A stretch of DNA of 64,000 nucleotides from NCBI RefSeq assembly GCF_009914755.1, contig NC_060945.1. One strand, 5' to 3'. Source of the DNA: the human T2T-CHM13v2.0 reference genome, Homo sapiens. Positions 28,881 through 43,146 of the stretch are shown here, piece after piece. The notes below the pieces were generated by a model that had not been told where the DNA came from, did not search any database, and worked only from the letters and a program-made list of their open reading frames with translations. A program made the translations under genes and the position numbers. Every line of letters starts with the position of its first letter. The first letter of the stretch is position 1.

Positions 28881-28939
28881 GTTCGCTCAGCACTACCGGA
28901 TTCCGCCCCGCCCGCTGCGATCCGGTTCCGCTCCCCACA

Positions 28940-29012
28940 ACCCGCTCTGTGGCGGGGCTTCCGGTCGGGAGGGTCCGCCAGCTCTCGCGTCCTTTGCTGG
29001 GTCCAGACACCG
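28940..29012 (+). other. YBEY: YBEY non-coding exon 1 (start approximate)
   Basis: Donor CCG|gtacgt at 29013; the next acceptor ccccag| opens exon 2 at 29467. Confidence 0.7.
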
Positions 29013-29510
29013 GTACGTCCGGGCGGGTTTTTAGTCTCCCAAGCGAGAGCGTCGCATTCACCCGCGTGGGTCTGCGGGCGCCCCAGACCCCAGAGGACCC
29101 GGCCCCCAACGCTTACCTGTCCCCTCTCCTGTCCCTCCCCCATTCCAGCCCCTTCTCTCCCCAGCCGTTGCCCCTCCCCGCACCCCGCCGCGTCCGCGCG
29201 CCTCTCTCCGCGCGCACCCCCAACCCGCCCCCTTTTCTCTGGGAACCGCTCCTTCCGCTCCGCCCGCCTGGAGTCCTTCTGGCCGGATTCCGCGGCATCC
29301 TTCCATAGACCCTCGTTGTTGCTTCCTCCTTGTGGTAAATGTAAATTCCCTTAAGATTTTCAATCAGTTCCACCAAATAAAGTGATCTGATTGCGCGTGC
29401 ATCTGTATTTTTACAGACCGTATTATCACTTGTACTGATTGGTCTTCTCTTACACTTTAACCCCAGGTTCCGTTGCAAACATTTTTAAAGGGCTGGTTAT
29501 TCTTCCTGAA

Positions 29511-29720
29511 ATGAGTTTGGTGATTAGAAATCTGCAGCGAGTCATCCCCATCAGGAGAGCGCCACTTCGCAGTAAGATCGAGATTGTAAGGAGGATTTTA
29601 GGAGTGCAGAAATTTGACCTGGGGATCATCTGTGTTGACAACAAGAATATTCAGCACATTAATAGAATCTACAGAGATAGAAATGTCCCAACCGATGTGC
29701 TTTCTTTTCCATTTCATGAG
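29511..29720 (+). CDS. YBEY: YBEY (rRNA maturation factor / YbeY metallo-endoribonuclease family) coding part of exon 2
   Basis: MSLVIRNLQ...[21 protein letters not shown] carries the YbeY N..YR....TDVLSF motif; donor GAG|gtaaaa. Confidence 0.97.
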
Positions 29721-30442
29721 GTAAAAAAAAAATGTTCCTCTTCTTGTCTAGCCCATCTTCCCAGAGTAAATTTCCTGTCGTTTTGTTTTGTTTTGTTTTG
29801 TTTTTTAATTGAGACGGAGTCTTGCTCTGTCACCCAGGCTGGAGTGCAGTGGTGCGATCTCGGCTCACTGCAACCTCCCTTCCTGGTTCAAGTGATTCTT
29901 TTGCCTCAGCCTCCCCAGTAGGTGGGACCACAGATGCTGGCCACCACGCCTGGCTAATTTTTTTTTGTCAGTATTTTTAGTAGAGACGGGGGTTTTACCA
30001 TGTTGGCCAGGCTGCTCCTGAACTGATCTCAGGTGATCTGCCTGCCTCGGGCTTCCCAGAGTGTTGGGATTACAGGCGTGAGCCAGAGCACCCGGCCTAA
30101 ATTTCATGTATTAATTATATTATAGGCTAGGCTCCATGGTGCCTATAAGTATATATGTTACAGACATGATTTTTAATTTTAATTTTGAAAATTTTCAAAT
30201 ATACACAAAAGTAGAGAGAGCAGTATATTCAGCCTCCACTGATCGAGGCCCATCACCCAGAGTCTACAATTACACTGGTAACCCAGCAGGAAAAAGAAAG
30301 GTGACAGCCGAGCGCGATGGCTCATACCCATAATCCCAGCACTTTGGGAGCCCGAGGCGGGTGGTTCACCTGAGGTCAGGAGTTCGAGATCAGCCTGGCC
30401 AACATGGTGAAACCCTGCCTCTACTAAAAACACAAAGAATTA

Positions 30443-30607
<165 letters not shown>

Positions 30608-31055
30608 TCAGGAAAAAAAAAAGAAAAGAAAAAGGTGACTAGCGTCCACCCCCCTTCCCCTCCTAATGCTCTCAGTGAATTAGAAGAGAGAAGCAAACTG
30701 CTTCTGCAATATTTTTGCAGTTTTAAGTGGGATTCGTTAATGAATATGTGCACATTGGAAAAATTAAAACAACACTGAAAATAAACAGACTGGGGTAAAT
30801 ATTTCCAACAAACTCAATGTAATAGCAGTCAGGTTATTATCTACATTCTGTAGATGACTTCATTCAAGGCTTCCCACATTGTAGCAGCAGGAATTGGAGC
30901 AATCCTTTGGGAAAGCAACTTGGCATTTCAAACACACGTATCCTTTAGTCCTGTGGTGACACACCCAAGACAATAAACCAAAAGGCAGAAGAGGCCGGGT
31001 GCAGTGGCTCACGCCTGTAATCCCAGCACTTTGGGAGGCCGAGGTGGGTGGATCA

Positions 31056-31313
<258 letters not shown>

Positions 31314-31316
31314 TCA

Positions 31317-31469
<153 letters not shown>

Positions 31470-31899
31470 TTAGCCGGGCATGGTGGTGTGCAGAGCTGTC
31501 GTCCCAGCTACTCAGGAGGCTAAGGTGAGAGGATCGCCTGAGCTCAAGAAACTGAGGCTGCAGTGAGCCAAGACTGCACCTCTGCACTCCACCCTGGGCC
31601 ACAGAGTAACACCCTTTTTCAAAAAAAAAGTTACCATTTTCTGTAATAGGAAAATAAGAGGAGCATCCTAAATATCCAGCCATAGGTGACTGGCTTAGTG
31701 TGAACAGTCCTTAACTAAGTGGACTGGTCTTTATAGTCTTTATGTGGAAAATGTGAAAGACTCTTTAGGACAAAATACCAAGTGGAAAGAACAGGAATAT
31801 ACAGTCGTGTCCATGTGATGATTTAACTCTGTAGAAGTTGTGGATCTGCGTGATTCTGCATTGGGAGGGATGAAAGAAATGAAAAGCCATTTGACAAGG

Positions 31900-33588
<1,689 letters not shown>

Positions 33589-33680
33589 ATGGAAACAATT
33601 TAGGGCACTTGTGTACGGTTGGCTGGGCAACCCACCCGCCACAGGCCCAGCTGCCACTCTGGCCTGAGACATGCATCTTA

Positions 33681-33827
<147 letters not shown>

Positions 33828-34157
33828 TTAGGCCAGACGCGGTGGCTCACGCCTGTAATCCCAGCACTTTCGGAGGCCAAGGCGGGTGGATCACCTGAGG
33901 TTGGGAGTTTGAGACCAGCCTGACCAACACGGAGAAACCCAGTCTCTACTAAAAATACAAAATTAGCCGGGTGTGGTGGCGCATGCCTGTAGTCCCAGCT
34001 ACTCGGGAGGCTGAGGCAGGAGAATTGCTTGAACCCAGGAGGCGGACACTCCAGCCTGGGCAACAAGAGGGAAACTCTGTCTCAGGAAAAAAAAAAAAAA
34101 AAGAAATACAAAAATTAGCTGGGCACGGTGGCATGCACCTGTAATCCCAGCTACTCA

Positions 34158-34262
<105 letters not shown>

Positions 34263-34399
34263 TCAAAAAAAAAAAAAAAAAAAGTGATTTGGTCAGAGAT
34301 AAGTGCTTATTTGCCTTGGGATTAACCAGGATGAAACCTGTCAACCTGTGGTTGGGTTACGTTTCCTGTTCTCTAAGTCTACATTTCCTCATTTTTTAG

Positions 34400-34528
34400 C
34401 ATCTGAAAGCAGGTGAATTTCCCCAGCCTGATTTTCCAGATGACTACAATTTGGGAGACATTTTCCTAGGAGTGGAGTATATCTTCCATCAGTGTAAAGA
34501 AAATGAAGATTACAATGACGTCCTGACT
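34400..34528 (+). CDS. YBEY: YBEY exon 3
   Basis: ttttag|[27 protein letters not shown]...DVLT|gtaagc; LGDI motif; 129 nt, phase 0-0. Confidence 0.96.
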
Positions 34529-34897
34529 GTAAGCGGGGATGCTGAAATCATATAACCTGGCTCATGGAACATGGGCCTTGCAAAGGGGTCAAGATCACAA
34601 CCCTGCATCCATGTGTGTCCGTGGGTACCGTAAGGGCTACTGGGGGAAGAACCTGTAAGCAGGGTGTGAGGAGCACCCAGGCTGGGTAGGGACTGCATGC
34701 CCCATGCCACAGTTGAAGGAGGGAGAGAACACGCTGTGAAAACACAGAAGCTCCCAGAGAAGCCTTCTCAGCTTTTATCTCTGGAGTAGAGCAGACTATG
34801 TTGAGCTAACACAGACCTGCTGAATCAGCTTCTTTCTGAGCTGCCAGAAGTACAGAAGTTGGAGCCTCCACCACCTTCCAGATCTGTTTCTCCTCAG

Positions 34898-37800
34898 TGT
34901 AATCCACCTATGGGTTCTTCCTGCCCACTGCACAGACAAAACCAATTCACTGCAATTGTGGTATTGCAGTAGAGAAAGAGTTTAACACAGAGCTAGCCAA
35001 GCAGAAAGGCTGGAGTTATTATTCAACTCAATCTCCCAGAGAACTCAGAGGCTACAGTTTCTACAGGCAATTTGGCAGGCAGGGGCTAGGGAATGCCTGC
35101 TGCTGATCGGCTGCAGACGGACCATGGGGTGTCAACGATTTTTGTCCCCTGAGTCCGCCTCTGCGTGGAGCCACGGGATCAGCTGAGTCATGAGTCTCAG
35201 GTCCAGGTGGAGTCTGTAGGTTGCCAGAACTCAAAAGTCTGAAAAACATCCCAAAAGACCATTCTTAGGTTGTACTATTGACGTTATCTTATTGGGGAGC
35301 AATTGGGGCGGTCACAAATCTCGTGACCTCTGGCTGCGTGAGTCCTGAGCAGTAGGGAATTACAGCAGGGCAAGCTGGGGAAGCAAGGCCTGCGGGCTGG
35401 TTCTCCTCAGGACACCTACATCTGAGCAGAATTCAGGCCCCTCCCATCATCCTAATCTTGTGGCCCTTCACAAGCTTCACAGAGGTGGCTTCGGTCTTGA
35501 GCAAGGAGGGGATTCGTTTTAGGGAGGGATGATTACTATTCTTGATTTAAAGTTAAACTCTAGATTAAATTCCTCCCGTGGTTAGCTTGGCCTGTGCCCG
35601 GGACTGAGTGGGGACAGCCACGCAAGTTAAACTCTAGATTAAATTCCTCCCGCGGTTAGCCTGACCCGTGCCCGGGACTCAGTGGAGTCAGCCACACAAG
35701 TTAAACTCTAGATTAAATTCCTCCCGCGGTTAGCCTGACCCATGCCCGGGACTCAGTGGAGTCAGCCACGCAAGTTAGACTCTAGATTAAATTCCTCCCG
35801 CGGTTAGCCTGACCCATGCCCGGGACTGAGTGGGGACAGCCACACAAGTTAAACTCTAGATTAAATTCCTCCCGCGGTTAGCCTGACCCATGCCCGGGAC
35901 TCAGTGGAGTCAGCCACGCAAGTTAGACTCTAGATTAAATTCCTCCCGCGGTTAGCCTGACCCGTGCCCGGGACTGAGTGGGGACAGCCACGCAAGTTAA
36001 ACTCTAGATTAAATTCCTCCCGCGGTTAGCCTGACCCGTGCCCGGGACTCAGTGGGGACAGCCACACAAGTTAAACTCTAGATTAAATTCCTCCCGCGGT
36101 TAGCCTGACCCGTGCCCGGAAGTGAGTGGAGTCGGCCACACAAGTTAAACTCTAGATTAAATTCCTCCCGTGGTTAGCCTGACCCATGCCCGGGACTCAG
36201 TGGGGACAGCCACGCAAGTTAAACTCTAGATTAAATTCCTCCCGCGGTTAGCCTGACCCGTGCCCGGGACTCAGTGGGGACAGCCACACAAGTTAAACTC
36301 TAGATTAAATTCCTCCCGCGGTTAGCCTGACCCGTGCCCGGGACTCAGTGGAATCAGCCACACAAGTTAAACTCTAGATTAAATTCCTCCCGCGGTTAGC
36401 CTGACCCATGCCCGGGACTCAGTGGAGTCAGCCACGCAAGTTAGACTCTAGATTAAATTCCTCCCGCGGTTAGCCTGACCCATGCCCGGGACTCAGTGGA
36501 GTCAGCCACACAAGTTAAACTCTAGATTAAATTCCTCCCGCGGTTAGCCTGACCCGTGCCCGGAAGTGAGTGGAGTCAGCCACACAAGTTAAACTCTAGA
36601 TTAAATTCCTCCCGCGGTTAGCCTGACCCGTGCCCGGGACTCAGTGGAGTCAGCCACACAAGTTAAACTCTAGATTAAATTCCTCCCGCGGTTAGCCTGA
36701 CCCATGCCCGGGACTCAGTGGAGTCAGCCACACAAGTTAAACTCTAGATTAAATTCCTCCCGCGGTTAGCCTGACCCGTGCCCGGGACTCAGTGGAGTCA
36801 GCCACACAAGTTAGACTCTAGATTAAATTCCTCCCGCGGTTAGCCTGACCCGTGCCCGGGACTCAGTGGAGTCAGCCACACAAGTTAAACTCTAGATTAA
36901 ATTCCTCCCGCGGTTAGCCTGACCCGTGCCCGGGACTCAGTGGAGTCAGCCACACAAGTTAGACTCTAGATTAAATTCCTCCCGCGGTTAGCCTGACCCG
37001 TGCCCGGGACTCAGTGGAGTCAGCCACACAAGTTAGACTCTAGATTAAATTCCTCCCGCGGTTAGCCTGACCCGTGCCCGGGACTCAGTGGGGACAGCCA
37101 CACAAGTTAAACTCTAGATTAAATTCCTCCCGTGGTTAGCCTGACCCATGCCCGGGACTCAGTGGGGACAGCCACACAAGTTAAACTCTAGATTAAATTC
37201 CTCCCGCGGTTAGCCTGACCCATGCCCGGGACTCAGTGGAGTCAGCCACACAAGTTAGACTCTAGATTAAATTCCTCCCGCGGTTAGCCTGACCCGTGCC
37301 CGGGACTCAGTGGAGTCAGCCACACAAGTTAAACTCTAGATTAAATTCCTCCCGCGGTTAGCCTGACCCGTGCCCGGGACTCAGTGGAGTCAGCCACACA
37401 AGTTAGACTCTAGATTAAATTCCTCCCGCGGTTAGCCTGACCCGTGCCCGGGACTCAGTGGAGTCAGCCACACAAGTTAGACTCTAGATTAAATTCCTCC
37501 CGCGGTTAGCCTGACCCGTGCCCGGGACTCAGTGGGGACAGCCACACAAGTTAGACTCTAGATTAAATTCCTCCCGCGGTTAGCCTGACCCGTGCCCGGG
37601 ACTCAGTGGAGTCAGCCACACAAGTTAAACTCTAGATTAAATTCCTCCCGCGGTTAGCCTGACCCGTGCCCGGGACTCAGTGGGGACAGCCACACAAGTT
37701 AAACTCTAGATTAAATTCCTCCCGCGGTTAGCCTGACCCGTGCCCGGGACTCAGTGGGGACAGCCACACAAGTTAAACTCTAGATTAAATTCCTCCCGCG

Positions 37801-40105
37801 GTTAGCCTGACCCATGCCCGGGACTCAGTGGGGACAGCCACACAAGTTAGACTCTAGATTAAATTCCTCCCGCGGTTAGCCTGACCCGTGCCCGGGACTC
37901 AGTGGAGTCAGCCACACAAGTTAAACTCTAGATTAAATTCCTCCCGCGGTTAGCCTGACCCATGCCCGGGACTCAGTGGAGTCAGCCACGCAAGTTAGAC
38001 TCTAGATTAAATTCCTCCCGCGGTTAGCCTGACCCGTGCCCGGGACTCAGTGGAGTCAGCCACACAAGTTAGACTCTAGATTAAATTCCTCCCGCGGTTA
38101 GCCTGACCCATGCCCGGGACTCAGTGGAGTCAGCCACGCAAGTTAGACTCTAGATTAAATTCCTCCCGCGGTTAGCCTGACCCGTGCCCGGGACTCAGTG
38201 GAGTCAGCCACACAAGTTAAACTCTAGATTAAATTCCTCCCGCGGTTAGCCTGACCCGTGCCCGGGACTCAGTGGGGACAGCCACACAAGTTAAACTCTA
38301 GATTAAATTCCTCCCGCGGTTAGCCTGACCCATGCCCGGGACTCAGTGGAGTCAGCCACGCAAGTTAGACTCTAGATTAAATTCCTCCCGCGGTTAGCCT
38401 GACCCGTGCCCGGGACTCAGTGGAGTCAGCCACACAAGTTAAACTCTAGATTAAATTCCTCCCGCGGTTAGCCTGACCCATGCCCGGGACTCAGTGGAGT
38501 CAGCCACACAAGTTAAACTCTAGATTAAATTCCTCCCGCGGTTAGCCTGACCCGTGCCCGGGACTCAGTGGAGTCAGCCACACAAGTTAGACTCTAGATT
38601 AAATTCCTCCCGCGGTTAGCCTGACCCATGCCCGGGACTCAGTGGAGTCAGCCACACAAGTTAGACTCTAGATTAAATTCCTCCCGCGGTTAGCCTGACC
38701 CATGCCCGGGACTCAGTGGAGTCAGCCACGCAAGTTAGACTCTAGATTAAATTCCTCCCGCGGTTAGCCTGACCCGTGCCCGGGACTCAGTGGAGTCAGC
38801 CACACAAGTTAAACTCTAGATTAAATTCCTCCCGCGGTTAGCCTGACCCGTGCCCGGGACTCAGTGGGGACAGCCACGCAAGTTAGACTCTAGATTAAAT
38901 TCCTCCCGCGGTTAGCCTGACCCGTGCCCGGGACTCAGTGGGGACAGCCACGCAAGTTAAACTCTAGATTAAATTCCTCCCGCGGTTAGCCTGACCCGTG
39001 CCCGGGACTCAGTGGAGTCAGCCACACAAGTTAGACTCTAGATTAAATTCCTCCCGCGGTTAGCCTGACCCGTGCCCGGGACTCAGTGGAGTCAGCCACA
39101 CAAGTTAGACTCTAGATTAAATTCCTCCCGCGGTTAGCCTGACCCATGCCCGGGACTCAGTGGGGACAGCCACGCAAGTTAGACTCTAGATTAAATTCCT
39201 CCCGCGGTTAGCCTGACCCGTGCCCGGGACTCAGTGGGGACAGCCACGCAAGTTAAACTCTAGATTAAATTCCTCCCGCGGTTAGCCTGACCCATGCCCG
39301 GGACTCAGTGGGGACAGCCACACAAGTTAAACTCTAGATTAAATTCCTCCCGCGGTTAGCCTGACCCGTGCCCGGGACTCAGTGGAGTCAGCCACGCAAG
39401 TTAGACTCTAGATTAAATTCCTCCCGCGGTTAGCCTGACCCGTGCCCGGGACTCAGTGGGGACAGCCACACAAGTTAGACTCTAGATTAAATTCCTCCCG
39501 CGGTTAGCCTGACCCGTGCCCGGGACTCAGTGGAGTCAGCCACGCAAGTTAGACTCTAGATTAAATTCCTCCCGCGGTTAGCCTGACCCGTGCCCGGGAC
39601 TCAGTGGGGACAGCCACGCAAGTTAGACTCTAGATTAAATTCCTCCCGCGGTTAGCCTGACCCGTGCCCGGGACTCAGTGGAGTCAGCCACGCAAGTTAG
39701 ACTCTAGATTAAATTCCTCCCGCGGTTAGCCTGACCCGTGCCCCGGACTCAGTGGGGACAGCCACGCAAGTTAAACTCTAGATTAAATTCCTCCCGTGGT
39801 TAGCCTGACCCGTGCCCGGGACTCAGTGGGGACAGCCACGCAAGTTAGACTCTAGATTAAATTCCTCCCGCGGTTAGCCTGACCCGTGCCCGGGACTCAG
39901 TGGAGTCAGCCACGCAAGTTAGACTCTAGATTAAATTCCTCCCGCGGTTAGCCTGACCCGTGCCCGGAAGTGAGTGGAGTCGGCCACGCAAGTTAGACTC
40001 TAGATTAAATTCCTCCCGCGGTTAGCCTGACCCATGCCCGGGACTCGGTGGAATCAGCCACCCCAGACCTCTCTCACTGTTATCATTTTTGCACAGGTGG
40101 TTTCA
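34898..40105 (-). mobile_element. Solo LTR8-family (ERV1) LTR hosting the 74-bp minisatellite
   Basis: TG...CA termini (tgtaatccacctatgggttcttcctgccc... and ...tttgcacaggtggtttca) match the recalled reverse complement of LTR8/LTR8A ends; near-TSD tcag/gcag. Confidence 0.75.
35550..40061. repeat. 74-bp minisatellite (VNTR), 61 copies
   Basis: Unit AAGTTA(A/G)ACTCTAGATTAAATTCCTCCCG(C/T)GGTTAGCCTGACCC(G/A)TGCCCGGGACTCAGTGG(AGT/GGA)CAGCCAC(A/G)C; first unit at 35550, last at 39990 (4440 = 60 x 74). Confidence 0.98.
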
Positions 40106-41520
40106 GCAGCTTGATGCCAAAAAAAATAAAAAAGGAAAAGTATTCTGAAAAGCCATGTATGAGTGAATCATACTTAACTTGGCCTCCTTTGGCTGCACAG
40201 CCATGCCCTGAATCGCCCTTGTGGATCCAAGTGCATCCGTGTGGCTTGAGGCAGAGCTTCCCAGCCAGACCCAGTGTGAAAGGATGGGACGGCCACACAG
40301 GAACCTGGGCCCCAACTGCTCCCTCCAGACCTGGGTGGGACTTGCCCGCCATGCACACCCTGCTGGGGAAGAGGGAGTTTCTGAGAGTGACAGGAAGTGG
40401 CCCAGCCGGAGATTCAGCCCTGGGATCTCTGTGGCCAGCAACTGTGGGCGGGGGGGTATGTGGACATCTGCTTCCATTTTCCCCAAACCTAAGATTCTGT
40501 TCCCTGGTCTTCCCCTGGCATTTCTTCCTCGGGCCCAGAGCCCTCTCCTTGGGGCTCCCTATTACCCTGAGGGGAGGGCCAGCCCACCAGCCCAGGACCC
40601 CATCCTCATAGCCACAGGCCAGGCCAGCTCTGCTCAGGGCTGGCTCTCAGTTGCACTCTCCATCTACCCTGCCTTGTCCTCCATGTCTCCAGGCACCTCC
40701 CGCCAGCCCCAAGGATACCCACCTCCCAGACCTCCCTCCTCCCTCCACCCAAACCCCAGGGGAGTGCTACCCCTATGGCCCATGTGGCTCCATAAACCCC
40801 CTTGGTGCTGTGCCTGCTCAGGGTCCACAGGCCCTCCCTCCTCTTCCTCCTCCTCCTCCTCTTCCCCCAGCTCTGGGCTCCATCCGGGTGCCCCTCCCCT
40901 GTGGGCTTTAATCCAGCCCTCTCTCCAGGGGGACATGGCGACTGTGGGTCTTCCTGACTCACCAGCAGCTGCACCTCCCTCCGCCTCCGCCTTCATACCT
41001 CTCCCCCACTCCCTGTGCTGCCTGTGCCCCAAAGCTTTACCCAGAGTGTTCAGTAAAATCAGGGGCCACCGGAGGCCCCATCCTCTGACTGGGGGTTGGA
41101 CCTGGGGTGTGGGCTGTGCGCTTGCCTCGTCCCTCTTAGGGCAGGGAGGCCACCCCTGGCCGGTGCCCCACTGCCCCACCACCCCGTGGCACCCACCCCT
41201 CCCCACTTCTTCATATTCCATCCCCCCTTGCCCATTGCTCCTGCGGCTGGGCAGTTCCATCCTGGGGGCCCCTCCCCAGCACAGTGCTGGCCCAGACAGC
41301 AATCCACGTTGACTAAAGACTCTCAAAGGGGCTTGCTTGCTTTCCATTTTAGATGGAAGGGAACTGAAGCTGAGTGCCTGTAATTCCTGCCCAGGGGTCT
41401 CACAGCAACCCTGGGGTCCTGCAGCCACATACCAAGAGCAGCCTGTGGCCCTGGGGTGGCCCTGAAGGGGCAGGTTCCTGTGGGGTCATCCTCTGAGCCG
41501 GTTTAAAATTATTCTGACAG

Positions 41521-41589
41521 GTGACGGCCACCCACGGACTCTGTCACTTGCTGGGATTCACACACGGCACGGAGGCAGAGTGGCAGCAG
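41521..41589 (+). CDS. YBEY: YBEY exon 4 (metal-binding HxxxHxxxxxH)
   Basis: gacag|[23 protein letters not shown]|gtaagg; the HGxxHLxGxxH YbeY signature; 69 nt. Confidence 0.97.
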
Positions 41590-42071
41590 GTAAGGAGCCC
41601 ATCCATCCCACTACCGAGGGGGTGCGTGGGGGAAGGAGGCTCCCCCAGGCCCCTGCCAGCCCCCACCCTCCATCCTGACCGCCCCCGCAGGAACTGGACC
41701 TCAGACCTGCCCTTGTAAAAATGACACAGATGTTTGCTTTCAACACCGGGCTCCCCTAATACTTCCAGCTGAATGTGTTCACTAAGGAAAGCGGTCTGAG
41801 TGCAGAGGCCGAGAGCCACAGCTGACACTAGCAAGTGGCGCTTGGTCAAAAAGGTCCAATCAGCTAGAGACTAGGCCAGACCCAGGGCGGAGGCGGGAGC
41901 TCTGCGTGGAGTGAGTTCCGGGTTGGTTTCCTCCAGACCCATGCGCTCCGCCTACGGAGGCCCACGTGGGCTCCGGTCCACATGGTTAACAGGCACACAA
42001 GCCCGTGTTGGGAGCAAACTGCTTCTCTGAAAGTCATGAAAAACCTTTTTCATTAAAAAAAGAAAAAGTTT

Positions 42072-42683
<612 letters not shown>

Positions 42684-42898
42684 TTATTCTCCCGGCCTGT
42701 GGCGGTTCGTGCACTCGCTGAGCTCAGGTTCTGGTGAAGGTGCCCGGAGCCGGGTCCCGCCCTTCGGCCTGAGCTAGAGCCGCGCGGGCGGCCGGGTTCC
42801 CCCAAACCCTGTGGGAGGGGCATCCCGAGGAGGCGACCCCAGAGAGTGGGGCGCGGACACCTTCCCTGGGGAGGGCCAGCGCGCTTCCTTCCTTCCAG

Positions 42899-42994
42899 AT
42901 GTTCCAGAAGGAGAAGGCGGTGCTGGACGAGCTGGGCCGACGCACGGGGACCCGGCTGCAGCCCCTGACCCGGGGCCTCTTCGGAGGGAGCTGA
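42899..42994 (+). CDS. YBEY: YBEY exon 5 (last coding exon)
   Basis: ttccag|MFQKEKAVLDELGRRTGTRLQPLTRGLFGGS*; total 70+43+23+31 = 167 aa. Confidence 0.96.
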   Translation: MFQKEKAVLDELGRRTGTRLQPLTRGLFGGS

Positions 42995-43062
42995 GGGCCG
43001 CGTTCCTTCTGAAAGCGGGACGCGGGAGGGGTGGAGGCTGCGGGGAGCCGGGGTCGCACACA

Positions 43063-43146
43063 AATAAATAACGAATGAACGTACGAGGGGAACCTCCTCT
43101 TATTTCCTTCACGTTGCATCGGGTATTTTTCATTATTGTAAATAAA
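43063..43146 (+). terminator. YBEY: YBEY polyadenylation signals
   Basis: AATAAA at 43063-43068 and 43141-43146, downstream of the stop codon. Confidence 0.7.

What the first reader, a model, noticed from the sequence alone, without database searches (positions are those of the whole stretch)
34898..40105. 4.5-kb, 61 x 74-bp minisatellite grown inside a solo LTR in YBEY intron 3
Seen: 61 units with exact 74-bp periodicity and no net indel; roughly 3-5 CpGs per unit (CCGCGG, CCCGTG, CCCGGG, CACGC), so on the order of 200+ CpGs; flanked on both sides by LTR sequence with TG/CA termini. Known: LTR8-type LTRs carry enhancer sequence near their 5' (U3) end, and 21q22.3/YBEY expression has been tied to a breast-cancer GWAS signal. 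Inference: one U3 segment has been amplified about 60-fold. Copy number is probably highly polymorphic and poorly seen by short reads, so it is a candidate hidden eQTL or mQTL for YBEY, MCM3AP or C21orf58.
Basis: partly seen in the sequence, partly recalled or inferred. Interest (0 to 1): 0.7.

Follow-up and report, generated by a model that had tools for sequence, protein, structure and literature searches.

The report
Minisatellite grown inside an old retroviral LTR
An ancient, solitary retroviral end-piece (LTR8 group) in an intron of the human YBEY gene has had one 74-base stretch copied 61 times in a row, an ordinary kind of repeat whose one visible effect is an early stop site for some YBEY transcripts.

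Summary
TRF finds one array at 35550-40061: 74 bp x 61.0, 96% matches, 0% indels. It has 245 CpGs, GC 0.551 and CpG o/e 0.72.

The array sits inside a 5208-bp element, 34898-40105, with TG...CA ends. The 652-bp flank is a dispersed repeat: 1374 first-look candidates, 40 scored, 69-76% identity.

Two print anchors place it in the LTR8 group (HUERS-P1, ERV1). These are the LTR8B in PSG5 intron 2 and the LTR8 at the THOLE locus. The subfamily is not resolved.

The LTR lies on the minus strand, antisense to YBEY. The amplified piece is U3, about LTR positions 70-150 of about 785. It is single-copy in all 23 other copies examined.

Family age is about 60 My at 2.2e-9. This copy has drifted GC-ward.

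Each unit carries ATTAAA on the YBEY strand. Two RefSeq YBEY mRNAs end 15 nt after the first one and encode a 121-aa truncated protein.

The unit has no AP-1 heptamer. Length polymorphism, methylation and the eQTL idea could not be tested.

Verdict: a new member of a known kind, of modest interest.

The parts
34898..40105 (-). Whole solo LTR of the LTR8 group (HUERS-P1, ERV1), 5208 bp. It would be 768 bp with a single unit. LTR sense is the minus strand: 5' (U3) start at 40105, 3' (U5) end at 34898.
   Evidence: Ends align with the ends of 19 family copies and of the print-named THOLE LTR8. The flank is a dispersed repeat. Orientation follows from the THOLE 5' LTR, its AATAAA and the primer-binding-site-like 18-mer after its end.
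40062..40105 (-). LTR head: the first 44 nt of U3 (TGAAACC...).
   Evidence: Aligns with the first ~45 nt of the family copies and of THOLE LTR8. The window then lacks about 32-35 nt that the family copies carry before the unit.
35550..40061 (.). Minisatellite, 74 bp x 61, derived from a U3 segment (about LTR positions 70-150 of about 785). CpG-island-like by sequence.
   Evidence: TRF; unit statistics, 245 CpGs, o/e 0.72; homologous segment single-copy in other copies.
34898..35549 (-). LTR body: the rest of U3, then R and U5, 652 nt.
   Evidence: 69-76% identity to 40 scored genomic copies. 61-63% to the PSG5 and PSG9 LTR8B. 66.8% over 196 nt (E 5e-19) to the R-U5 piece of THOLE LTR8.
40106..40109 (.). 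Upstream half (in LTR sense) of the 4-nt target-site duplication (GCAG on the + strand).
   Evidence: Matches the other half (34894-34897) at 3 of 4 positions. Among 19 family copies, 13 match at 3 or 4 of 4; the control offset gives 1 of 19.
34894..34897 (.). Downstream half (in LTR sense) of the 4-nt target-site duplication (TCAG on the + strand).
   Evidence: and the junction sequences.
35015..35023 (-). Decayed poly(A)-signal region of the LTR itself (AATAATAAC), at the place where THOLE LTR8 has AATAATAAA.
   Evidence: Read by eye. The region lies inside the 196-nt match.
35564..35569 (+). First ATTAAA hexamer on the YBEY sense strand. The same hexamer is present in 61 of 61 units.
   Evidence: The RefSeq exon ends at 35584, 15 nt after the hexamer.
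34400..35584 (+). Alternative terminal exon of YBEY (NM_001006114.3, NM_001314026.2). It reads through the exon-3 donor, crosses the LTR body antisense and ends in the first array unit.
   Evidence: RefSeq table. The resulting protein is 121 aa and shares its first 114 residues with the 167-aa select form.
35184..35190 (.). The only exact AP-1 heptamer (TGAGTCA) in the element. It lies in the LTR body, not in the array.
   Evidence: 10 matches in the window, about the 10.08 expected by chance, and 0 in 35550-40061.

Best explanation
Identity. This is a solitary LTR of the LTR8 group (HUERS-P1, class I / ERV1). It inserted antisense into what is now YBEY intron 3 tens of millions of years ago. 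The provirus was later lost by LTR-LTR recombination, which is inferred from the solo state and the flanking repeat.

Origin of the array. At this locus alone, a 74-bp stretch of U3 was duplicated. It then grew to 61 copies by slippage or unequal exchange (inferred). Later exchanges mixed the unit variants.

Local drift. This copy lies in GC-rich distal 21q and has drifted towards G+C. That has made the array a 4.5-kb CpG-island-like block.

Effect. The one consequence that can be shown is on the opposite strand. Every unit reads ATTAAA in the YBEY sense. Two curated YBEY mRNAs that fail to splice at the exon-3 donor are cleaved 15 nt after the first hexamer, giving a 121-aa protein without the C-terminal third. 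I therefore read the array as a mostly neutral LTR-derived minisatellite that doubles as an intronic polyadenylation site with 60 back-up copies. Whether copy number changes anything is not shown.
For: Array: TRF and unit statistics.

Dispersed family: 1374 first-look candidates, 40 scored, 69-76% identity.

Termini and 4-nt target duplications: 6 of 19 copies match 4/4 and 7 of 19 match 3/4, against 1 of 19 at 3/4 or better in the offset control. The window copy matches 3/4.

Naming by print:
- Frost 2023 (PMC10113160, passages) puts an LTR8B in PSG5 intron 2.
- The window flank hits PSG5 and PSG9 once each, 61-63% over about 630-650 nt, followed by one copy of the unit at 82-83%.
- The PSG5 hit lies between the N-domain exon and the next Ig exon.
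- PMC6862598 (passages) names the LTR8 at the THOLE locus and prints its primers. Each primer occurs once in the genome.
- That LTR8 hits the same PSG element in the opposite orientation. Its R-U5 piece matches the window at 66.8% over 196 nt, E 5e-19.

Orientation: THOLE LTR8 has AATAAA and a primer-binding-site-like 18-mer 4 nt after its end.

Unit copy number elsewhere:
- The unit is single-copy in 20 of 20 fetched copies (3 carry partial deletions), in PSG5, in PSG9 and in THOLE.
- A two-unit query gives 35 matches in this array and 17 elsewhere, each of the 17 covering one unit only.

GC-ward drift:
- Unit GC 0.551 against 0.442 in the family.
- 4.0 CpGs against 0.45.
- Body GC 0.505 against 0.440.
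- 11 weak-to-strong against 3 strong-to-weak columns.

Poly(A) site.

No partner LTR in the window.
Against: - The first direct blastn of the window flank against the THOLE LTR8 amplicon found nothing. The link appeared only through the PSG element and with word size 7.
- LTR8 proper shares only the first ~45 nt, about half of its left piece and the R-U5 end with this family.
- Identity to the print-named LTR8B is low (61-63%), so the subfamily (8, 8A, 8B or another HUERS-P1 LTR) is open.
- The window's target duplication is imperfect (3 of 4).
- The window copy is further from the 20 copies (K2P 0.348) than they are from each other (0.268). Its own divergence therefore gives no usable date.
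- Nothing here measures how often the intronic poly(A) site is used, or whether units beyond the first are ever used.
- RefSeq lists no enhancer or silencer inside the array.
- Length polymorphism is unknown.
Confidence: 0.75

Rival explanations
1. One reading: the array is an amplified U3 enhancer (or a copy-number-dependent CpG island). Its length varies among people and acts as a hidden eQTL or mQTL for YBEY, MCM3AP or C21orf58, possibly behind the 21q22.3 breast-cancer signal.
For: - LTR8B copies are working trophoblast enhancers in print (PMC10113160 passages; PMC12969887 passages).
- The array meets sequence criteria for a CpG island.
- In LTR10A/F, tandem-repeat length tracks AP-1 binding and is polymorphic (preprint 10.1101/2021.10.28.466196, passages).
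- rs35418111 is a YBEY eQTL (PMC8122893).
Against: - There is no exact AP-1 heptamer in any unit.
- In PSG5 the heptamer lies outside the segment homologous to the unit.
- RefSeq lists no functional element in the array, though repeats are hard to assay.
- The index SNP lies in PCNT, and print already offers two candidate functional SNPs.
- No print on this array turned up in three searches.
Confidence: 0.12
2. A purely neutral subtelomeric minisatellite. The use of ATTAAA by YBEY transcripts is incidental read-through noise with no biological consequence, and the LTR origin is irrelevant.
For: - The expansion is unique to this locus.
- Variant units are intermingled without higher-order structure; runs tests are not significant, with 278-1289 of 2000 permutations at or below the observed value.
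- The truncated protein lacks the C-terminal third.
- No Rfam family and no 13-mer hotspot motif (0 of 14 window matches fall in the element).
Against: - Two transcripts ending there are curated as BestRefSeq.
- CpG density is nine times that of sister copies, which asks for some explanation, though biased gene conversion would do.
Confidence: 0.4
3. Not an LTR at all: a satellite or segmental artefact whose flanks only mimic TG...CA ends.
For: RefSeq soft-masking does not cover 34294-42042.
Against: - The flank has hundreds of dispersed relatives with the same ends and 4-nt target duplications.
- It is homologous to two print-named LTR8-group elements.
- The mask lists no block of 100 nt or more between 34294 and 42042; I took it to cover mainly young repeats.
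Confidence: 0.02

Closest known systems
LTR8B solo LTRs in the PSG gene cluster (PSG5 intron 2, PSG9)
   Same: Homologous over the whole length, including one copy of the 74-nt segment. Both are intronic solo LTRs of the HUERS-P1 group.
   Different: Only 61-63% identical to the window copy. The segment is single-copy there. The PSG LTRs lie sense to their host gene, while this one is antisense. PSG5 has an AP-1 heptamer near the LTR start that the window lacks there. Enhancer function is shown in print for PSG, not here.
LTR8 of the HUERS-P1 provirus at the THOLE/CSF1 locus (PMC6862598)
   Same: Same first ~45 nt and the same R-U5 end (66.8% over 196 nt). It gives the orientation and the tie to an internal region with a primer-binding-site-like 18-mer.
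   Different: 691 bp according to the paper, against 761-807 bp in 12 sister copies. Central U3 is not alignable. It is a proviral LTR, not a solo one. Print calls it hominoid-specific, so it is younger.
VNTR inside LTR10A/LTR10F (preprint 10.1101/2021.10.28.466196, passages)
   Same: A tandem repeat grown within the U3 of an ERV1 LTR, a proposed source of regulatory length variation.
   Different: The LTR10 repeat is 28-30 bp, carries AP-1 motifs, reaches at most 33 motif copies in the reference and is a trait of the whole subfamily. Here the unit is 74 bp without an AP-1 heptamer, has 61 copies and expanded at one locus only.
Intronic polyadenylation sites supplied by retroelements (for example MER65 giving the poly(A) signal of PSG genes; PMC12969887 passages)
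   Same: A retroviral LTR provides the hexamer that ends host transcripts.
   Different: There the LTR's own sense-strand AAUAAA is used at the normal gene end. Here an ATTAAA on the antisense strand of U3, repeated 61 times, ends a truncated isoform.

Membership tests
Retroviral solo LTR (ERV1 type) | TG...CA termini | tested here: met
   In LTR sense TGAAACC...GGATTACA. The same ends are seen in the family copies.
Retroviral solo LTR (ERV1 type) | 4-bp target-site duplication. The 4-bp rule for class I is recalled knowledge. | tested here: inconclusive
   Window: 3 of 4 positions match. Family: 6 of 19 copies match 4/4 and 7 of 19 match 3/4, against 1 of 19 at 3/4 or better in an offset control. 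By eye two more copies (L021, L022) are 4/4; the script misplaced their ends.
Retroviral solo LTR (ERV1 type) | Dispersed copies of the same bounded unit | tested here: met
   1374 first-look candidates, 40 scored, on many chromosomes. LTR length is 761-807 in 12 copies.
Retroviral solo LTR (ERV1 type) | Solitary: no partner LTR, no primer binding site or polypurine tract next to it | tested here: met
   No second copy in the 64-kb window. The flank after the 3' end does not resemble the 18-mer that follows THOLE LTR8, and the flank before the 5' end is pyrimidine-rich in LTR sense (read by eye).
LTR8 group (HUERS-P1) | Homology to an element that print calls LTR8B | tested here: met
   One hit in PSG5 intron 2 and one in PSG9, 61-63% over about 630-750 nt. 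Print: PMC10113160 passages.
LTR8 group (HUERS-P1) | Homology to an element that print calls LTR8 | tested here: met
   R-U5 piece 66.8% over 196 nt, E 5e-19, and the first ~45 nt align. Central U3 does not align, and the first blastn found nothing.
LTR8 group (HUERS-P1) | Subfamily call (LTR8, LTR8A, LTR8B, or LTR35/73/19B/19C as listed in PMC5753468) by a curated repeat library | not testable with these tools
   No RepeatMasker or Dfam library is available here. The soft-mask table carries no family names and does not cover the element.
Minisatellite / VNTR | Head-to-tail copies of a 10-100 bp unit | tested here: met
   74 bp x 61.0.
Minisatellite / VNTR | Copy number varies among people | not testable with these tools
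   Only one human assembly is on hand. Nothing in print in three searches. Supplementary VNTR tables are closed.
CpG island (thresholds recalled: over 200 bp, GC above 0.5, o/e above 0.6) | Sequence criteria | tested here: met
   4514 bp, GC 0.551, o/e 0.72.
CpG island | Unmethylated in the germline or in tissues | not testable with these tools
   No methylation data here.
AP-1-driven LTR enhancer (as in LTR10A/F and active LTR8B) | AP-1 heptamer in the repeated unit | tested here: not met
   0 matches to TGASTCA in 35550-40061, and one in the LTR body at 35184-35190.
Intronic polyadenylation site | Hexamer 10-30 nt upstream of an annotated transcript end inside an intron | tested here: met
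   ATTAAA at 35564-35569. NM_001006114.3 and NM_001314026.2 end at 35584.

The most novel reading that the evidence does not exclude
Array length is a common structural polymorphism. Through 61-fold redundant antisense ATTAAA sites and/or length-dependent CpG methylation, it sets the share of truncated (121-aa) against full-length YBEY mRNA, and it is the unseen variant behind the 21q22.3 YBEY eQTL and breast-cancer signal.
Probability: 0.05. Interest if true: 0.6.

Novelty: new member of a known kind. Interest (0 to 1): 0.3.

Why it matters
LTR-derived tandem repeats are a known but poorly genotyped source of regulatory variation. This one is large (4.5 kb, 245 CpGs). It sits in a gene whose expression is tied in print to a cancer-risk locus, and it already supplies the 3' end of two curated transcripts. 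If its length varies and tracks isoform choice or methylation, it would be a concrete case of a structural variant hidden behind a SNP-tagged eQTL. If it does not, it is one more subtelomeric minisatellite. The GC-ward drift and CpG gain of this copy, compared with 20 sister copies, also make a tidy natural example of how location reshapes an old insertion.

Tried and rejected
Approaches that gave nothing or were dropped:
- Soft-mask as evidence against an LTR. The RefSeq mask skips 34294-42042. I took the mask to cover mainly young repeats and dropped the argument once one search showed the flank is dispersed.
- Direct blastn of the window flank against the 805-bp THOLE LTR8 amplicon: no hit at E <= 0.01. 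The relation showed only through the PSG element and with word size 7 on the separate LTR8 pieces.
- Locating LTR8B exactly by the sgRNAs of PMC12969887.
- One search used an ungapped match and misplaced 3' ends. One search had wrong end-gap settings. Even misplaces the 5' end of L011, L021 and L022 and is off by one in L014, so its counts are lower bounds.
- AP-1 heptamer in the unit: absent.
- 13-mer recombination-hotspot motif (recalled): 14 matches in the window, none in 34898-40105.
- Rfam families in 34000-41600: none.
- Higher-order structure of the array: none. The five polymorphic columns are intermingled. Columns 63 and 65 are fully linked, and two of the five are CpG/CpA.
- Print on this array: 'YBEY'+'VNTR' gave 0 papers. 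'YBEY'+'tandem repeat' gave 11 papers, 10 listed, none on this locus by title and abstract. 'LTR8'+'VNTR' gave 10 papers, 9 listed, none about an LTR8 repeat by title and abstract. Supplementary VNTR or eQTL catalogues could list it, and I could not see them.
- Dating this copy from its own divergence: rejected, because the copy evolves faster than its sisters.
- Identifying the tRNA behind the THOLE 18-mer: not done. That it is tRNA-Pro is recall.
- A recalled lead, unchecked: I remember YBEY as spanning roughly 11.4 kb in GRCh37/38, against 14.2 kb here (28939-43111). That would fit a shorter array in that reference. No tool or paper here confirmed it.

Full report
1. The observation

Tandem Repeats Finder reports one array at window 35550-40061: period 74, 61.0 copies, 96% matches, 0% indels, score 8044. 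I cut the array into a fixed 74-nt register from 35550.
- All 61 units stay in phase, with 0 to 12 differences between any two (mean 3.16, or 4.27%).
- There are 26 distinct unit sequences, the commonest seen 11 times.
- 58 of 74 columns never vary.
- The edge units are the most diverged. The first differs from the others at 7.8 positions on average and the last two at 6.2 and 5.3, against 2.4-3 for most inner units.
- Units hold 2-6 CpGs, 245 in all. GC is 0.551 and CpG observed/expected is 0.72, against 13 CpGs and 0.32 in the 652-bp flank.

The + strand begins TGTAATCC and ends GGTTTCA. In the select YBEY transcript the array lies between exons 34400-34528 and 41521-41589, that is intron 3.

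2. The flanks are a dispersed repeat with LTR hallmarks

The 652-bp flank (34898-35549) found 1374 first-look candidates in the T2T genome. The 40 that were scored match at 69-76% identity, many over the whole query. A subset lacks query positions of about 469-517.

I fetched 20 of these copies with short flanks and 17 extra 76-nt junction stretches. The copies share the window's ends: in LTR sense TGAAACC at the start and GATTACA-like at the end.

A fitting alignment placed both ends in 19 copies and compared the 4 nt outside them.
- 6 of 19 match at 4 of 4 and 7 of 19 at 3 of 4.
- The next 4 nt further out, used as control, give 1 of 19 at 3 or better.
- By eye two more copies (L021, L022) are perfect. 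The script misplaced their 5' ends.
- The window copy matches at 3 of 4.

A 4-nt duplication is what class I (ERV1) integration leaves; that rule is recalled knowledge. Twelve copies with good ends measure 761-807 bp, median 785. The window element with a single unit would be 768 bp. No second copy of the flank lies in the 64-kb window, so it is a solo LTR.

3. Family name, from print

No repeat library is on hand, so I used two loci that papers name.

(a) PSG5 and PSG9.
- Frost et al. [quoted passage not shown] They state that LTR8B and MER11D elements lie at each PSG gene.
- I fetched PSG5 and PSG9. The window flank hits each gene once, at 61-63% over about 630-650 nt. Each hit is followed directly by one copy of the 74-nt unit at 82-83%.
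- In PSG5 the hit lies between the open frame of the N-domain exon and that of the next Ig exon, so it is in intron 2.

(b) The THOLE locus.
- PMC6862598 (passages read) describes a HUERS-P1 provirus with two LTR8 upstream of CSF1. The upstream LTR8 is 691 bp and is split after 453 bp by an Alu. The paper prints primers for it.
- Each primer occurs once in the genome, 805 bp apart on chromosome 1.
- A first blastn of the window flank against that amplicon found nothing.
- The amplicon's post-Alu part does hit the very PSG elements that the window hits, at 69% over about 120 nt and in the opposite orientation.
- With the whole LTR8 in hand and a shorter word size, its 242-nt right piece matches the window at 66.8% over 196 nt (E 5e-19). 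It matches all 20 sister copies at 62-70%. Its 445-nt left piece matches them over only about 235 nt.

PMC5753468 (passages) lists LTR8, LTR8A, LTR8B, LTR35, LTR73, LTR19B and LTR19C as the LTRs of HUERS-P1.

My reading is that the element belongs to the LTR8 group. It is closer in build to the PSG LTR8B type than to LTR8 proper. The subfamily needs a library run. No inner gene was needed or touched.

4. Orientation, and which piece was amplified

The THOLE LTR8 reads on the + strand of chromosome 1. It carries AATAATAAA about 115 nt before its end. Four nucleotides after its end comes an 18-mer beginning TGG, a primer-binding-site-like sequence; that it fits tRNA-Pro is my recollection.

The window matches this R-U5 end with its minus strand. 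There the hexamer region has decayed to AATAATAAC. So the LTR is antisense to YBEY, with its U3 start at 40105 and its U5 end at 34898.

The alignment shows the following.
- The window's first 44 nt (40105-40062) are the LTR head.
- The family then has about 32-35 nt that the window lacks.
- Next comes the 74-nt segment homologous to the unit, at about LTR positions 70-150.
- The unit next to the LTR body (35550-35623) keeps family-like states that the inner units have lost.

The segment is single-copy in 20 of 20 fetched copies (3 have partial deletions there), in PSG5, in PSG9 and in THOLE. A two-unit query gave 52 matches. Of these, 35 lie in this array and 17 lie elsewhere, each of the 17 covering one unit only. 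All 18 first-look candidates were scored.

5. Age

Among the 20 sister copies the mean pairwise Kimura distance is 0.268 (190 pairs), or 0.257 without CpG sites. That is about 0.13 per lineage. It gives about 60 My at the customary 2.2e-9 per site per year (the rate is recalled). Slower rates give ages older than primates, which print contradicts.

Two caveats apply. The 20 copies were chosen as the best matches to the window, and alignment noise inflates distances.

Print brackets the family's activity.
- HUERS-P1/LTR8 is reported only from higher primates, and the THOLE copy only from hominoids (PMC6862598).
- LTR8B predates the PSG expansions of Old and New World monkeys (PMC10113160).

I place this insertion at very roughly 40-60 My. 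The window copy itself is further from the 20 copies (0.348) than they are from one another, so its own divergence is no clock.

The present units differ by 4.27% on average, which would mean a common origin within roughly the last 10-20 My if they evolved independently. Exchange within arrays makes that a loose figure, and the first duplication cannot be dated without orthologous loci.

6. Drift towards G+C

- The unit has GC 0.551 and 4.0 CpGs. The homologous 74 nt of the 20 copies have GC 0.442 (0.324-0.500) and 0.45 CpGs.
- The window's LTR body has GC 0.505 and 13 CpGs. The copies have 0.440 (0.414-0.472) and 3.5 (0-6).
- In an inner unit, 56 columns agree with at least half of the copies. 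In 11 columns the window has G/C where at least 60% of copies have A/T, against 3 columns the other way. For the edge unit the figures are 7 against 1.

By eye, some of the unit's CpGs are kept where sister copies show TG or CA, and some are new. GC-biased gene conversion in distal 21q, a hypomethylated state, or both would fit. Neither was tested.

7. What it does

On the YBEY sense strand every one of the 61 units reads ATTAAA, first at 35564-35569.

RefSeq's NM_001006114.3 and NM_001314026.2 (BestRefSeq) do not splice at the exon-3 donor (34528). They run on through the LTR body and end at 35584, 15 nt after that hexamer. Their reading frame stops at 34555.
- The protein is 121 aa and shares 114 residues with the 167-aa select form.
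- The part it lacks includes an [11 protein letters not shown] stretch. I recall this as the metal-binding motif of the YbeY family.

So the shown effect is an intronic polyadenylation site made from antisense U3. That the other 60 hexamers serve as back-ups, and that copy number matters, are inferences.

Against the amplified-enhancer reading:
- The exact AP-1 heptamer is absent from the array and occurs once in the LTR body, at 35184-35190.
- In PSG5 the heptamer lies near the LTR start, outside the unit's homologue.
- RefSeq lists no enhancer or silencer within 34898-40105. The nearest is a tiled reporter region at 40192-40486.
- Rfam finds nothing, and the 13-mer hotspot motif is absent from the element.

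8. What is known, and novelty

Tandem repeats inside LTRs are known. The LTR10A/F repeat is 28-30 bp, carries AP-1 motifs, reaches up to 33 motif copies, and is polymorphic and family-wide (preprint 10.1101/2021.10.28.466196, passages). LTRs that supply host poly(A) sites are also known, for example MER65 in the PSG genes (PMC12969887, passages).

This array differs in three ways. It is a single-locus expansion of a normally single-copy U3 segment. It is large and CpG-rich. It acts, as far as shown, through its antisense strand.

In PMC8122893 (abstract and passages), rs35418111 lies in a PCNT intron, tags the 21q22.3 breast-cancer locus and is a YBEY eQTL. Nothing in the main texts searched mentions this array. 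Supplementary tables were closed.

9. Verdict

The feature is real, and the LTR8-type call is correct at group level. It is a new member of a known kind. Interest is modest (0.3) unless the length proves variable and tied to YBEY isoforms or expression.

Noticed in passing
window 34400-35584 (+): Two curated YBEY mRNAs retain intron 3 sequence, cross the LTR antisense and end in the first array unit. They encode a 121-aa protein that shares 114 residues with the 167-aa form.
   Followed up: partly
window 34898-35549 compared with L007-L026: This LTR copy is markedly more G+C- and CpG-rich than 20 sister copies. It is also further from them (K2P 0.348) than they are from each other (0.268), which suggests locally accelerated, GC-biased change in distal 21q.
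   Followed up: partly
window 40117-40140 and 40192-40486: An A-rich run follows the LTR directly on the + strand. About 90 nt beyond the LTR, RefSeq lists a tiled reporter region scored as activating in HepG2 and repressive in K562.
   Followed up: no
L006 1047-1070 (chr1 THOLE locus): Four nucleotides after the end of the print-named LTR8 lies an 18-mer beginning TGG that looks like a primer binding site. From recall it fits tRNA-Pro, as the name HUERS-P implies. I did not match it to a tRNA gene.
   Followed up: no
one search hits, e.g. C8:26431868-26432460, C6:76586307-76586895: A subset of family copies lacks about 50 nt (query positions ~469-517) that the window and other copies have. 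This points to two subfamilies or a recurrent deletion.
   Followed up: no
window 35550-40061, unit columns 63 and 65: Two variable columns two bases apart are in complete linkage across all 61 units (22 units of one pair, 39 of the other). The two types are intermingled along the array.
   Followed up: partly
window 33705-34020: TRF reports a 137-bp, 2.3-copy repeat with an Alu-like consensus. It lies inside a masked block at 33692-34293, which is probably tandem or nested Alus.
   Followed up: no
window 28894 versus 34898-40105: In LTR sense (minus strand) the element lies 6-11 kb upstream of the MCM3AP start, on the same strand. No RefSeq transcript listed over 33000-42000 starts in the LTR.
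   Followed up: no
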